A stretch of 64,000 nucleotides of DNA from Eledone cirrhosa (taxonomy: Eukaryota), in the NCBI GenBank assembly GCA_964016885.1, contig OZ024763.1, positions 20,150,001-20,214,000 of the forward strand, in the 5' to 3' direction. Below the pieces are notes generated by a model that worked only from the letters and a program-made list of their open reading frames with translations, made no database searches and had not been told where the DNA came from. Position numbers and translations under genes: made by a program. Below, piece after piece: positions 28,933 through 63,923 of the stretch (positions within the stretch are counted from its first letter, which is position 1; every line of letters starts with the position of its first letter).

Positions 28933-29120
28933 AAAGTATGACCCCGACGGCAGAGCTCGAGCCGTTTCGACGGCTATTTCTGGACAGAGATAGCCGTCGA
29001 AACGGCTTGAGCTCTGCCGTCGGGGTCATACTTTTTCCTATTACCAACTCTACTACCCTAAGTATTGAGTACTCTGGTCCGTTATGGTCCATCTGGTTTC
29101 TTACCACAACTCCTTCGTTA
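28933..29120 (+). mobile_element. Hairpin-headed short element, copy 1 (HHR 3' half + inverted arm)
   Basis: Palindrome 28933-29034, then the conserved tail taagtattgagtact...ccttcgtta. Lies in (TA)n. Confidence 0.85.
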
Positions 29121-29169
29121 TATACATATATATATATACATATATATATATATATATATATATATATAT

Positions 29170-29535
29170 ATATAACAAAATTTAATATAGAAATGGCTTC
29201 TACAGGACTAGAACTGTTTCATTCGAAAGCAATGATCAATACTCTACTAATATATGAGTACCTTACTTACTGTGGTTACCCCTGATTGAACCACACACAC
29301 AAAGCAAAACATTTGGTATATATACAATATACACCGTTTCTTATACGATATATGGTTCTTTCTCTCGATATATACATATGTCTTTTTGATTTGGTTTATA
29401 TATATATAACACAATTTAATATAGAAACGGCTTCTACAGGACTAGAACTGTTTCATTCGAAGGCAATGATCAATACACTCTATTGACTGTATTGAGTACC
29501 TTACTTACTGTGGTTACCCCCGATTGAACCCTGGA
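29170..29535. repeat. Direct duplication (~120 bp) of a probable pLTR fragment
   Basis: aatttaatatagaaa...ctgtggttaccc...gattgaacc occurs at ~29175 and ~29410. Confidence 0.7.
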
Positions 29536-29564
29536 CTCTCTCTCACACACACAAACATATATAG

Positions 29565-29690
29565 CTGACGGCTGAGCTCTTGCCGCTTCAACAGAATTTG
29601 CTGTCGAAATGCCGAGAGCTCAGCCGTCGCACCTTCACGGTCTACTATACTTATATCCTACTGTCCTAAGTATTGAGTACTCTGGTAAAA
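29565..29690 (+). mobile_element. Hairpin-headed short element, diverged copy
   Basis: gacggctgagctc ... gagctcagccgtc hairpin plus the tail ctaagtattgagtactctggt. Confidence 0.7.
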
Positions 29691-30300
29691 TCCTAATCTC
29701 TCTCTCTCTACTTTTCTCTTCACACAAACACACGCACACACGTACACGCACACACGCACGCACACGCACGCACGCACACACACGCACGCACACGCACACG
29801 CACACGCACGCGCACACGCACGCACTCACACACACTCACACTCACACTCACACTCACACTCACACACACGCGCACGCACTCACACGCACACGCGCGCACA
29901 CACGCACACACACACACATATATATATATAGGTTAATAAGTTGTCGTTTAAGGTAGTCCAGTTAGAGGTTGTGAGTCTTCCGTACTGTGGATAGTTTTAA
30001 CGTAGGGCGTTGTTTGACTCAACAAGAAGTTTCCTTAATTAGGTAGCGAGCTTACTAGGATACCTATGCAGGGGATTCTTGGTTCTTGGAGTCATAACAG
30101 TGAAAGAGTGAAGAATCCAGCCAACCATGTTACTCTTTCACTATATATATATATATATATCTAGGGTTATATACCCTATAGAGTGCTTAGCTGCACACCG
30201 AAACTGCATTCGTTAGCTTGGCTGCAACGATGGCTTCGTTGATGCTGTACTAAATTTTGTATATATATATATATATATATATATATATATATATATATAT

Positions 30301-30737
30301 AGTTAAAAGAATAGAGGTGTAACACACAAGTTATTATATATTGGTAAACGGAATAGAAAATGCTGACAAATTGTTCACAGTTGAAAAATGGTTTAATTAG
30401 GAATAAAAGAGTATTAGTGATTGTATGGGTTAGTATTCAGTTGTGGTTTTAAGTTTTTAAGTTTTTACCGGTTGCGCATTTCTAAATGCTTTTCAAAAAT
30501 AATTTTGAGATAGAGTGGATCAGAGCAAACAGATGGATCAGAGCAAACAGCACAGACACTCTATCTCAAAATTATTTTTGAAAAGCATTTAGAAATGCGC
30601 AACCGGTAAAAACTTAAAAACTTAAAACCACAACTGAATACTAACCCATACAATCACTAATACTCTTTTATTCCTAATTAAACCATTTTTCAACTGTGAA
30701 CAATTTGTCAGCATTTTCTATTCCGTTTACCAATATA
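30301..30737. repeat. Fold-back element (~180 bp arms), same family as 39079-39479
   Basis: 30337-30517 versus 30557-30737. The spacer has gatcagagcaaacag twice. (TA)n flanks. Confidence 0.9.
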
Positions 30738-59744: not shown

Positions 59745-60620
59745 GACCACCACTACCTCTAACTCCAGCACTACCACCAACACCACCGACACTACCACCA
59801 GTTCCACCACCACCACTAGCTCCAGCATTACTACCATCACCACCGACACTACCACCACCTCCACCACCACTAGCTCCAGCATTACTACCACCACCACCAT
59901 CATCACCACCACCACTACCATCACCACCACCACCACTAGCTCCAGCATTACTACCATCACCACCGACACTACCACCACCACTAGCTCCAGCATTACTACC
60001 ATCACCACGACACTACCACCACCTCCACCACCACTAGCTCCAGCATTACTACCACCACCACCATCACCACCACCACCACTAGCTCCAGCATTACTACCAC
60101 CACCACCATCACCACCACCACCACCACCATCACCACCACCACCACTAGCTCCAGCATTACTACCATCACCACGACACTACCACCACCTCCACCACCACTA
60201 GCTCCAGCATTACTACCACCACCACCATCACCACCACCACCACTAGCTCCAGCATTACTACCACCACCACCATCACCACCACCACCACCACCATCACCAC
60301 CACCACCACCACTAGCTCCAGCATTACTACCATCACTACCGACACTACCACCACCTCCACCACCACTAGCTCCAGCATTACTACCACCACCACCATCACC
60401 ACCACCACCACTAGCTCCAGCATTACTACCACCACCACCATCACCACCACCACTACCATCACCACCACCACCACCACTAGCTCCAGCATTACCACCACAA
60501 CCACCACCACTAGCTCCAGCATTACCACCAACACCATCACCACCACTACCACCACCACTAACACCACCACTACCACTAAGACCACCAGCTCCTGCATTAC
60601 CACCGACACCACCACCACCT
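59745..60620. repeat. (CCA)n array punctuated by ctagctccagcatta
   Basis: Read directly from the sequence. Confidence 0.93.
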
Positions 60621-60810
60621 ACATCTATATTGTGTGAGTATATATTAGTGTTTATATAATGGTGTGGTGTCTGTGTATCTGTGTACATTCCATGACTCAT
60701 ACACTGTTCACTTTCCTGACATTTGTATATTATTCTATGTACTATACATGCACCTTTGATGAGTTGTAGTGCACCTGAGCACTGTACACAATAATTTTCA
60801 TTATATTTGT

Positions 60811-60911
60811 CCCGCCGAGGTTAACTTTGCCTTTCATCCTTACGGGGTCGATAAAATAAAGTACCAGTAATGTACTGGGTAATTGCTGACCTTGTGCCTA
60901 AAGTAGAAACA
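60811..60911 (+). mobile_element. SINE family A 3' half between two copies of a ~110 bp repeat
   Basis: TSD-like attatatttgt at 60800 and 60912. Flanks 60696-60800 and 60937-61040 are similar. Confidence 0.8.
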
Positions 60912-61419
60912 ATTATATTTGTGTGTGTGATTCTGTCTCATACACTATTCACTTTCCTGACATTTGTACATTATTCTGTGTATTATACATGCATCTTTGA
61001 TGAGTTGTAGTGCACCTGAGCACTGTACACAATCATTTCATATTATACTGTATTATATTATATCAAATATAATTTGTCTTTACAACATAAACGTGTGTCT
61101 ACGGAATACTCAACCAGTTACATTGTAAAATACAATGGTTATGTAGCTCTTTCCATTGATCGCCATAAATGGAACGCTAAAAGAGAAGTGGTGTTTACAG
61201 AACCTATATAATAGGCCATGTATCTTCCAGTACACCAAATTTTCCGTTATCAAAAATAATTGATTGTTTCTTTTAAACAGAAACGAAAATATCTATGGAG
61301 CCGAATTATGTTGTTTTCTACGTTATCGCCACATCAATATGGCGATTAAAATGGAGGATTCGAAACTATTGGCTTTGAGCCAACAAAGGAACTATTGTAT
61401 CGTTGTTTAATGTGTTGAG

Positions 61420-61575
61420 GGAGGCAAATTTGCCCAGTCGTTAGAACGTCGGATAGAATATTTTATGGTTGGTATTCGTTCCGGCTCCCACAGTTCAAAT
61501 CCAGCCGAGGTCGACTTTGCCTTTCATCCTTTCGAGATCGATAAAAAAAAGTACCAGTCTAGTACTGGGGTCGAT
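61420..61575 (+). mobile_element. Older SINE family A copy
   Basis: agttcaaatccagccgaggtcgactttgcctttcatcc...gtaccag. Confidence 0.75.
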
Positions 61576-63703
61576 TCTTCCTCTAATATCTCTTTCTCAT
61601 TTCTTCTCTCGCACTTTCTATCTTTCTCTGGAAGAAATCTGCAGTATCCAGGTCTGGAGAGGGATGGGCTCCGCCTGGCTTAAAATGCCCAAGAAACGCC
61701 GTATGTCAATACGGCGCCCCTACGACTCTACCAGGAGTTGCGGGACCATACCATACCTTTACTGCGCTAGAAATAGTAGTTAAATTATCTCCATCCTTCC
61801 TCTCCCCACCCCCTGTCGCCCCCACTTCCAGTTTTATATTACTTTGTTGAACTAGGTTGCATATTGATTAAACATTCGAGCGTCACGTGAAACGTCTTGC
61901 GGCCATTGATATGATAGTAAAGTGGAATATCAAAAAGTTCTGGCGTCGAGCCAACACTGGCACTAACTATGCGGACATTACATTTGCTATAAATAGCAGC
62001 CAAACCTCACACCAAACATCACCCTATTGTGTTGAAGTAGGTGACATATTGGATAAAGCGTTCGAGGGCTATGTGGGACGTCTTGCGTCTATTGATATGG
62101 GGATGAAGTGTATTATCAGAAAGTATTGGCTGCCAGCCTACAAGGGAACAACTATGACGTCGTTAAATGTGTTAGAAATAGCAGTCATATGCTTCCGCTC
62201 TCATCCACTCAACAACACTCTGTGTTAAACTAGGTTACATATGGGCAGGAAGGTTAGAGCGTCGTGTGAAACGTCTTGCGGTATTGAAATTAAAGTTCAA
62301 ATAGAAAAACCTGATTCCACCATCACGACGACCACCATCACCATCACCACCATTAGCAGCATTACTACCCCCAATTCCAGGCTATAATGCGTAAGGCAAT
62401 CTTCCCAAAACTCTCTAACAAGTCCATTAATCCATCGTCCCTGAACCTGTACTTTGTCTTAATCTTATTCTATCGTCCGATGAAGGTCTAGGGTCCAAAA
62501 CGTTAAGACACTACCTCCTACTATATCAACCGTATTGTTCTCTTATGTTGTTTTTCTTTGTTGACTTCTCGCATGCATATATATATATATATATATATAT
62601 ATATATATATATATATATATATATGTGTGTGTGCATGTGTGTGTATGCATGTATGCGTGCGTGTATGTGTGCATGTGTGCGTGTGTGTGTTTGCATGTAT
62701 GCGTGTGTGTGTATAAATATGTGTATATGTAGTATATATATATATGTGTGTGTGTGTTTGAGTGTATGTATTCACGTAGATTTAGTTTTAAATGTGCGTG
62801 TTTGTGTGTGTGGTGTAGCCATTTAAGCAGAAAAATAGTGAGGAGGGTGTATATATATAATATATTTAGGTTTATATACACACACACACACACATCTATT
62901 ATATATCCATGGGTAATTTAACACAGACAGTTTGTCCTCGTTTACAATTATATTCGCTCACACACATACAACCACACTGCATAGACATACATTGCAAATA
63001 TATTGTATATGCGTTACACACACACACATAGCATATGCACTACACGCACACGCAACATATGTACTACACACACACACTCAGCATATGCACTACATACACA
63101 TACACACACACAACATATGCACTACACACTCACACACTCAGCATATGCACTACACACACAGCATATACACTACACAGACACACTACACTCCAAACAGCAT
63201 ATACACACACACATATACACACACACATATATACACTACACACACAGCATACACACACATAGCATATACACTACACACATACACACACTCAGCATATACA
63301 CTACACACATACACACACACAATATACGCTACACACACATACACACACACAATATACGCTACACACACATACACACACACAATATACACTACACACATAT
63401 ATACACACGGCATATGCACTACACACAAACACAGCGTATACACTGCACGCAATACAAATATGTTTCGTAGTGTTGCACACAAGGCATCAATTAAATGCAT
63501 ACAGAGTATTTTTAGACAACATTATGCCTGCATGAGCCCTTAACTCTCGACAGTCTTAGGGGCGCCGTAGTGATACACAGCATGACTAAGGCATTTAAGA
63601 GTCGGTGAAACCTATCTCCACCCAAAGTGTGAACACCAGTCTATTTCTTCCTATGAAAGACAGAGAGAAAGATATATATATATATATATATATATATATA
63701 TAT

Positions 63704-63923
63704 ATAGGAACGAGTAGGACCCCGACGGCTGAGCTCAAGCCGTTTCGACGGCTAATTCTGGACAGAATTAGCCGTCGAAACGGCTTGAGCTCAGCCGTCG
63801 GGGTCCTACTCGTTCCTATTACCCACTCTACTACCCTAAGTATTGAGTACTTTGGTGCGTCTAAGTATTGAGTACTTTGGTGCGTTATGGTCCATCTGGT
63901 TCCTTACCACATTTCCTTCGTTA
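63704..63923 (+). mobile_element. Hairpin-headed short element, copy 3
   Basis: Palindrome 63704-63819 plus the conserved tail, which has a 25-bp internal duplication. (TA)n flanks. Confidence 0.88.

What the first reader, a model, noticed from the sequence alone, without database searches (positions are those of the whole stretch)
28933..63923. Hairpin-headed element family whose fold-back apex is hammerhead stem II: candidate ribozyme-primed snap-back retrotransposition
Seen: four copies (28933, 29565, 37266, 63704), three of them flanked on both sides by (TA)n, each starting with a palindrome. The right half reads as most of an HHR: stem II GACGGCUAAUUCU-ggac-AGAAUUAGCCGUC, then GAAA, then stem III ACGGC(uugagcuca)GCCGU with cleavage triplet GUC. 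The CUGANGA half is replaced by the reverse complement of the downstream sequence. The apex is at the same place in all copies, but the arm lengths differ. Each left arm mirrors its own copy's private bases (aaagtatg/catacttt; accagtaag..cagctg/cagctg..cttactggt; acgagtagg/cctactcgt). Known: PLEs carry minimal HHRs and often have inverted 5' pLTRs. Inference: the inversion arises anew at each insertion, when the cDNA 3' end folds on the stem II hairpin and self-primes. I know of no description of the ribozyme hairpin dictating the inversion point.
Basis: partly seen in the sequence, partly recalled or inferred. Interest (0 to 1): 0.85.

Follow-up and report, generated by a model that had tools for sequence, protein, structure and literature searches.

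The report
Penelope hairpins mark RNA's capped start
These 190-base hairpins belong to tens of thousands of miniature insertions of a Penelope-like retrotransposon, and their tips cluster at the element's predicted transcription start, not at a ribozyme stem, so they are likely made when two DNA copies of the same RNA end are joined head to head.

Summary
The hairpins are real. They are miniature insertions of a 3.5-kb Hydra-like Penelope retrotransposon (intact 719-aa RT/GIY-YIG ORF). Copy 3's arms equal parent +61 to +1 (inverted) and +5 to +140. The genome holds 37,335 exact tail-junction hits.

The inversion arises anew: 27 different junctions in 36 copies, and arms share a haplotype in 38 of 41.

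The tip is not hammerhead stem II. The parent's real stem II closes a ~40-nt loop behind a UUGANAA core, and no fold-back on it was found.

Arm ends pile up about 20-fold at an initiator-like site. In a sister family they pile up at its initiator, 30 nt behind a TATA box and upstream of the whole ribozyme. Where both arms reach +1, the single base between them is G:C in 43 of 53 sites, while the parent has T: the likely copied cap. One arm is tailed and the other tail-less about 170:1.

Best model: two target-primed cDNAs run off the capped RNA end and are joined. No RNA data.

The parts
37266..37326 (-). Copy 3, inverted tail-less arm = parent +61 back to +1 (+1 = predicted transcription start)
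   Evidence: identical to an intact monomer in L272
37327..37462 (+). Copy 3, tailed arm = parent +5 to +140
   Evidence: identical to L272; whole copy 100% identical at 27 places including itself
37341..37368 (+). 3' half of the hammerhead in copy 3: GAAA, stem III with palindromic loop, cleavage triplet GUC (site after 37363), 3' strand of stem I; the 5' half is absent
   Evidence: sequence; parent alignment, pair counts and fold
37384..37462 (+). Tail (+62 to +140), present on one arm only; in the parent it is 5' UTR leading to the ATG at +232; holds the TATTGAGTAC stem-loop shared with sister families
   Evidence: motif survey
63704..63923 (+). Copy 4: 57-bp arms 63704-63760 and 63763-63819, other subfamily, 25-nt tandem duplication in the tail
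28933..29120 (+). Copy 1: older subfamily, 49-bp hairpin, inverted arm shortened at its outer end, two mismatches between arms
29563..29690 (+). Copy 2: diverged relative (about 75-80% identity), asymmetric junction, partial tail, no (TA)n on the right
29175..29292 (+). Sister family B copy: inverted hammerhead 3' half plus TATTGAGTAC-type tail, centre missing
   Evidence: family analysed
29408..29537 (+). Second family B copy, in tandem with the first

Best explanation
The hairpins are short insertions of a Hydra-like Penelope retrotransposon, likely formed when two cDNAs, primed from the two strands of a (TA)n target, both run off the capped 5' end of the element's RNA and are joined head to head. 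Shown: the parent, the two fixed outer ends (+61 and about +140), the pile-up of inner ends at +1 to +8, junction variety, the extra G:C pair at -1, and one tailed plus one tail-less arm. Inferred: +1 is the Pol II start; the protein binds the tail stem-loop and starts reverse transcription on both sides of it, as the anole element does in vitro; both cDNAs are copied from one RNA (or from two RNAs of one locus); their ends are trimmed and joined by end-joining repair. Long copies would come from RNAs read through the 3' pseudo-LTR, or from a template jump. The ribozyme is a bystander: in this family the start lies inside its loop II, so the short copies carry only half of it.
For: Parent: tandem 3,543-bp monomers with intact 717-719-aa ORFs; ATG at +232. 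Family A, 99 position-ordered tailed copies: 81 inverted, 9 long; the furthest arm ends in -7..+8 in 65 of 81; end rate 0.128/nt there against 0.006/nt on either side. Family B, 90 copies, fully automatic: 39 of 49 inverted copies end in -7..+8; rate 0.105 against 0.006, with 0.0098 at its stem II loop and 0.0047 at its cleavage site. B's +1 is the A of CCAGATT, 30 nt behind TATA[AT]ATA in 7 of 8 long copies. A's +1 is the A of TTAGT(C/T), kept in a subfamily whose loop has otherwise diverged. Extra base: in the first 100 of 261 rows (58 sites, counted by hand) a single G:C in 43, A:T in 10, two bases in 5 (p=6e-6 against 50:50). The parent has T in 100 of 100 rows listed. In 39 fetched sites (picked mostly from the G:C class), 19 have it as G on the tailed arm, 15 as C on the tail-less arm, and 1 on both. 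Tailed+tail-less 3,471 against tail-less+tail-less 20 sites; 13 of 16 long inverted pairs follow the same rule, one locus counted twice. Same haplotype on both arms in 38 of 41, 24% expected. PMC11167929: the anole protein cuts and extends both strands, starts at two sites that bound the tail, and does not need ribozyme cleavage. PMC4859970: untemplated 5' G is read as the copied cap in L1 and SVA.
Against: No RNA data: no RNA run was listed, so the start site and the cap are inferred. Family A's TATA-like word is weaker and begins about 27 nt upstream. Some arms end a few bases upstream of +1 (-1 to -17), so the wall is not absolute. In family B the cap signal is weaker: G in 5, parental C in 7, other in 2. 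The G:C could be a non-templated or templated repair insert. End points of 23 of the 99 family A copies were corrected by hand. One clear chimera (L190) and two single-base discordances among 41 do not fit a single RNA. Subfamily age inflates arm agreement, so one RNA against two is open. Samples come from the start of one contig and favour young copies.
Confidence: 0.7

Rival explanations
1. One cDNA starts at the tail end, reaches the RNA 5' end, folds back on itself by microhomology and copies itself up to +61, where the endonuclease resolves it.
For: Explains shared haplotypes and the 170:1 asymmetry without a second primer; many junctions have 1-4 nt overlaps; an ATT, the anole enzyme's preferred cut word, sits at +60 to +62.
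Against: It needs the tailed arm always to reach further 5'; observed 35 further, 37 shorter, 9 equal in A and 15/31/3 in B. Both arms reach +1 with only 1-2 nt between them in 261 strand hits, leaving no room for a loop. The extra base sits on the tail-less arm in 15 and on the tailed arm in 19 of 39 sites. Tail-less copies also occur alone.
Confidence: 0.12
2. The pile-up marks an RT stall or an RNA break caused by structure, not a transcription start; the two cDNAs are then joined.
For: In family A the site lies just inside the long loop II, and the loop can pair partly with itself. No RNA start is mapped.
Against: In family B the site lies at a different structural place, on a TATA-initiator pair. 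A stall gives no reason for a non-parental G:C at -1. Long copies pass the site with a low end rate beyond it.
Confidence: 0.07
3. Self-priming on an antisense transcript makes the head-to-head palindrome (the proposal of PMC3846280).
For: Proposed from palindromes at inverted junctions of rotifer Penelope elements.
Against: It gives no reason for tips at a sense-strand initiator in two families, or for a G at the sense -1 position.
Confidence: 0.04
4. One reading: the cDNA end folds on hammerhead stem II and self-primes.
For: The parent has a real stem II: 90% of cells paired and 3 pairs with two-sided changes in 13 long copies (modest, 15-26 of 500 shuffles as high on three measures, about 170 of 500 on the other two). 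The tip lies within its loop.
Against: Such a product would keep the ~40-nt loop between the arms; the diagnostic junction was found 0 times, and the 4 hits were ordinary continuations (the pattern covers only subfamilies with that loop word, 7 of the 9 reference copies). Family B does not turn at stem II.
Confidence: 0.03
5. A hairpin-headed master copy spreads as a unit, like a SINE or MITE, and its arms are kept alike by conversion.
For: 27 places are 100% identical to copy 3.
Against: 27 different junctions in 36 copies. Copy 3's junction is about 2 of 100 rows in its subfamily, which gives about 70 copies by recurrence alone. Arms equal the autonomous parent letter for letter. The short copies lack the upstream promoter words.
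Confidence: 0.04

Closest known systems
Hydra-clade Penelope-like elements (Craig et al. 2021, PMC8557442)
   Same: C-terminal GIY-YIG, DKT, CxCx5C linker, CxxC and CxH near the end, (TA)n targets, partial tandems, an inverted 5'-truncated copy, tail at one end.
   Different: Monomer 3.5 kb rather than under 3 kb; RWR for RWK; family A's ribozyme is non-canonical (U3:A8 core, ~40-nt loop II); most copies are ~190-bp hairpins. The sections read call the origin of the inverted structures still undefined.
Anole Poseidon PAc in vitro (Frangieh et al. 2024, PMC11167929)
   Same: Two RT start sites bounding the tail, cutting and extension of both strands, AT-rich target, ribozyme cleavage dispensable.
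   Different: The parts read do not treat inverted copies, their junction or the RNA 5' end; the tail here is ~80 nt and lies in the 5' UTR.
Inverted pLTRs with palindromic junctions in Adineta vaga Penelope (Arkhipova et al. 2013, PMC3846280)
   Same: Head-to-head inverted pLTR, tail on one side, TATA and initiator in the pLTR.
   Different: Explained there by self-priming, probably on an antisense template; the data here favour two sense-templated cDNAs.
L1 twin priming and the 5' untemplated G (as cited in PMC4859970)
   Same: Two primers from the target, an inversion, an extra G read as the cap.
   Different: L1 twin priming copies two non-overlapping parts of one RNA (recalled); here both arms copy the same 61 nt, giving an inverted duplication.
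U3:A8 minimal hammerheads of Schistosoma PLEs (Cervera and de la Pena 2014, PMC4209133)
   Same: U3:A8 core, long helix II, short helix I, palindromic loop 3.
   Different: Loop II of ~40 nt holding the predicted transcription start; one abundant subfamily has a C3-A8 mismatch.

Membership tests
Penelope-like element, EN+ | Single ORF with RT and C-terminal GIY-YIG | tested here: met
   717-719-aa ORFs with YRDD and VIY..YIG; 453 relatives; Pfam weak: GIY-YIG E 0.042 on a piece, no family on the whole protein
Penelope-like element, EN+ | Partial tandems (pseudo-LTR), inverted 5'-truncated copy, tail at one end | tested here: met
   L123 layout, L272 tandem, pair counts
Hydra clade | DKT, RWK, CxCx5C linker, terminal CxxC and CxH | tested here: met
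   DKT, RWR, CNCPDRSIC, CNLC, CKH read against section 11 of PMC8557442
Hydra clade | Insertion into (TA)n | tested here: met
   tail end followed by (TA)3 in 92 of 99
Hydra clade | Canonical hammerhead; length generally under 3 kb | tested here: not met
   family A core UUGANAA or CUGAGAA, monomer 3,543 bp; family B has a canonical CUGAUGA
Hydra clade | Placement in an RT tree with reference Hydra proteins; absence of CCHH | not tested
   no named reference set was fetched
Type I hammerhead (long parent copies) | Core plus stems I-III | tested here: met
   91% of cells paired, slid controls 28-62%; the MFE of the natural region has the three stems, -23.2 kcal/mol; position 7 varies while the flanking core is kept
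Type I hammerhead (long parent copies) | Self-cleavage after GUC | not testable with these tools
   needs an assay; no excess of ends at the site in family B, a weak 9 of 180 arms at +40..+43 in A
Type I hammerhead (the hairpin copies) | Both halves of the core on one strand | tested here: not met
   5' half absent; the 30 of 69 CUGANGA hits read in context were chance junctions or flanks
Non-LTR retrozyme | Tandem non-coding units, each with a complete hammerhead | tested here: not met
   copies are single and carry half a ribozyme; definition from 10.64898/2026.07.22.740005
MITE or hairpin-ended DNA element | Fixed ends, terminal inverted repeats, one inherited centre | tested here: not met
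   the inverted part is at one end only and the centre differs from copy to copy

The most novel reading that the evidence does not exclude
Penelope-like elements integrate by double priming on one RNA: a protein pair bound to the tail stem-loop nicks both target strands and starts one cDNA on each side of the tail. The inverted pseudo-LTR is simply the second cDNA, and its tip records the capped start of the RNA. This would explain the tail and the inverted repeat together, replace the self-priming and antisense proposals, and let Penelope start sites be mapped from genome sequence alone.
Probability: 0.45. Interest if true: 0.8.

Novelty: new variant of a known kind. Interest (0 to 1): 0.62.

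Why it matters
How Penelope-like elements make their inverted repeats and one-sided tails is stated as open in the papers read (PMC8557442 section 15; PMC3846280 discussion). Here tens of thousands of natural insertion products give counts that separate the models: where arms end, which arm carries the tail, and a likely cap signature on either arm. An intact, young, high-copy parent is at hand for an in vitro test. In practice, these hairpins would be mis-annotated as a SINE, MITE or microRNA-like family, and family A's ribozyme is missed by CUGANGA searches.

Tried and rejected
Rfam scan: only simple-repeat noise among the rows shown. The repeat finder was swamped by microsatellites. CUGANGA parent next to the mirrored stem: 2 hits, both mutated left arms; 69 hits with a wider gap, of which the 30 read were chance. 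The sequence upstream of the non-inverted copy in L008 was unique flank, not parent. Splice-acceptor reading of the TTTAG site: dropped, because copies keep the AG and ends are spread over several bases. Pol III or tRNA origin: dropped once the parent was found. Pile-up at the ribozyme cleavage site: not seen in B, weak in A. RNA evidence: no RNA holder listed; read laying was not used. No Penelope protein match in the window itself. The script had an off-by-one error in tail typing and was rerun. Earlier findings of the scan: none returned. Literature searches that found no account of tips at the start site or of a copied cap in Penelope elements. Subscription papers, Repbase reports and all supplements (notably files S1 and S2 of PMC8557442) were not seen and may describe this family.
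Full report
Observation. The window lies in a 3.0-Gb, microsatellite-rich eukaryote genome. 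Copies 3 and 4 have perfect 57-bp arms, copy 1 a 49-bp hairpin with two mismatches, and copy 2 is a diverged relative without the hairpin described. The family is large: 37,335 exact hits of a 21-mer at the start of the tail, 0 for the reversed control.

The parent. Unselected genomic stretches showed copies that continue upstream of the tip. Following them gave a partial tandem with a broken RT and endonuclease (L123) and then a tandem array of 3,543-bp units with intact 717-719-aa ORFs (L272). The protein has RWR, DKT, YRDD, CNCPDRSIC, VIY..YIG, CNLC and CKH, matching the Hydra description in section 11 of PMC8557442. No tree was built, and Pfam support is weak. I number the A of TTAGTCC as +1. 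Copy 3 is then parent +61 to +1 inverted, followed by +5 to +140, letter for letter; the ATG is at +232.

The ribozyme. Long copies carry ACCCC, a UUGANAA or CUGAGAA core, and a stem II whose 5' strand lies ~45 nt upstream of the tip, around a ~40-nt loop. In 13 hand-picked long copies 91% of cells pair and three stem II pairs change on both sides; the shuffle controls are only modestly exceeded. The natural region folds into the three stems. The U3:A8 core is described for Schistosoma PLEs (PMC4209133). The hairpin copies hold only the 3' half of the ribozyme.

The inversion is made anew. I took 99 tailed copies in positional order from the start of contig C1. Of these, 81 have an inverted arm, 9 are long and 9 are short without inversion. 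Among the 36 whose junction could be read between the two stem II strands there are 27 different junctions, some with inserts. Arms share a haplotype in 38 of 41 unselected copies, against 24% expected; one is a clear chimera. End points of 23 of the 99 were corrected by hand after reading the sequences.

Where arms end. In family A the furthest arm ends in -7..+8 in 65 of 81 copies; the end rate is 0.128 per base there and 0.006 on either side. A sister family B (12,522 hits; its tail leads into a 46-60% identical ORF) was scored automatically on 90 copies: 39 of 49 inverted copies end in -7..+8, rate 0.105 against 0.006, with no peak at stem II or at the cleavage site. B's +1 lies six bases before an intact CUGAUGA, at CCAGATT, 30 nt behind a TATA box in 7 of 8 long copies, with CCAAT further up. 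The consensus words for initiator and TATA spacing are recalled. The tip thus follows a predicted start site, not a part of the ribozyme. The junction that a fold-back on the true stem II predicts was found 0 times.

A likely cap mark. In the youngest subfamily, 261 strand hits have both arms reaching +1 with one or two bases between. In the 100 rows listed (58 sites, hand count) the single base pair is G:C in 43 and A:T in 10; 5 sites have two bases, 2 of them CG. Long copies of that subfamily have T at -1 in 100 of 100 rows listed. Of 39 fetched sites, chosen mostly from the G:C class, 19 carry G on the tailed arm, 15 carry C on the tail-less arm, 1 both, 2 A or T, and 2 could not be oriented. 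An untemplated G is read as the copied cap in L1 and SVA (PMC4859970). In B the signal is weaker (5 G, 7 parental C, 2 other).

One tail per insertion. In one subfamily, tail-less plus tailed pairs number 3,471 and tail-less plus tail-less 20 sites. Long inverted pairs follow the rule in 13 of 16, one locus counted twice. Either arm may reach further 5' (35/37/9 in A, 15/31/3 in B).

Mechanism. Shown: the anatomy and counts above. From PMC11167929: a Penelope protein cuts and extends both strands, starts at two sites bounding the tail, and needs no ribozyme cleavage. Inferred: each target strand primes one cDNA, one from +61 and one from about +140; both run off the capped 5' end; the ends are trimmed and joined. 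One RNA copied twice fits the asymmetry and the shared haplotypes best, but two RNAs of one locus are not excluded, and the chimera needs two templates or later conversion. A fold-back at the RNA end remains the main rival.

Against what is known. Head-to-head inverted pseudo-LTRs with a one-sided tail are well described (PMC8557442, PMC3846280, PMC2377424), and self-priming was already proposed for them. So neither the structure nor the snap-back idea is new. I found no account of tips at the start site, a copied cap or the strict one-tail rule.

Papers seen: PMC11167929 and PMC4209133, parts 1-2 of 4; PMC8557442, passages and sections 11 and 15; PMC3846280, passages and Discussion; PMC2377424 and PMC4859970, passages; 10.64898/2026.07.22.740005, part 1 of 5. 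No supplements were read.

Verdict. A new variant of a known kind. The ribozyme-primed model is not supported. The data point instead to a testable account of how Penelope inverted repeats form. It lacks RNA evidence.

Noticed in passing
window 37496-37795: A third family: CUGAUGA, a stem II with a ~70-nt loop, GAAA, palindromic loop 3, then a TATTGAGTAC tail ending in (TA)n; preceded by a short inverted piece across a (TA)n spacer.
   Followed up: no
window 36303-36326 and 15934-15957: Compact canonical hammerhead cores after a pyrimidine-rich stretch, probably other Penelope pseudo-LTRs; further core-like matches at 4467-4495 and 32175-32203 on the minus strand.
   Followed up: partly
L091, L146, L221 and most of L093-L122: An abundant subfamily has a C3-A8 mismatch in the ribozyme core (33 of 44 cores tallied, in a sample biased to this subfamily) and still spread widely.
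   Followed up: partly
family A sample, +40 to +43: 9 of 180 arms end at about the ribozyme cleavage site, roughly twice background; may be copies of cleaved RNA or a microhomology effect; not seen in family B.
   Followed up: partly
L054:1400-1620: A hybrid of a family B hairpin and a family A-type end, joined at the shared GAAAC of the two ribozymes.
   Followed up: no
L153, L219, L173, L057: Junction inserts include poly-T or poly-A runs and short templated repeats.
   Followed up: no
L007, L011, L026, L162 and others: Copies of several families stack within the same (TA)n tracts, a few tens of bases apart.
   Followed up: no
L124: An ORF of another Penelope-like element with RT and GIY-YIG motifs lies near the family A copies.
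   Followed up: no
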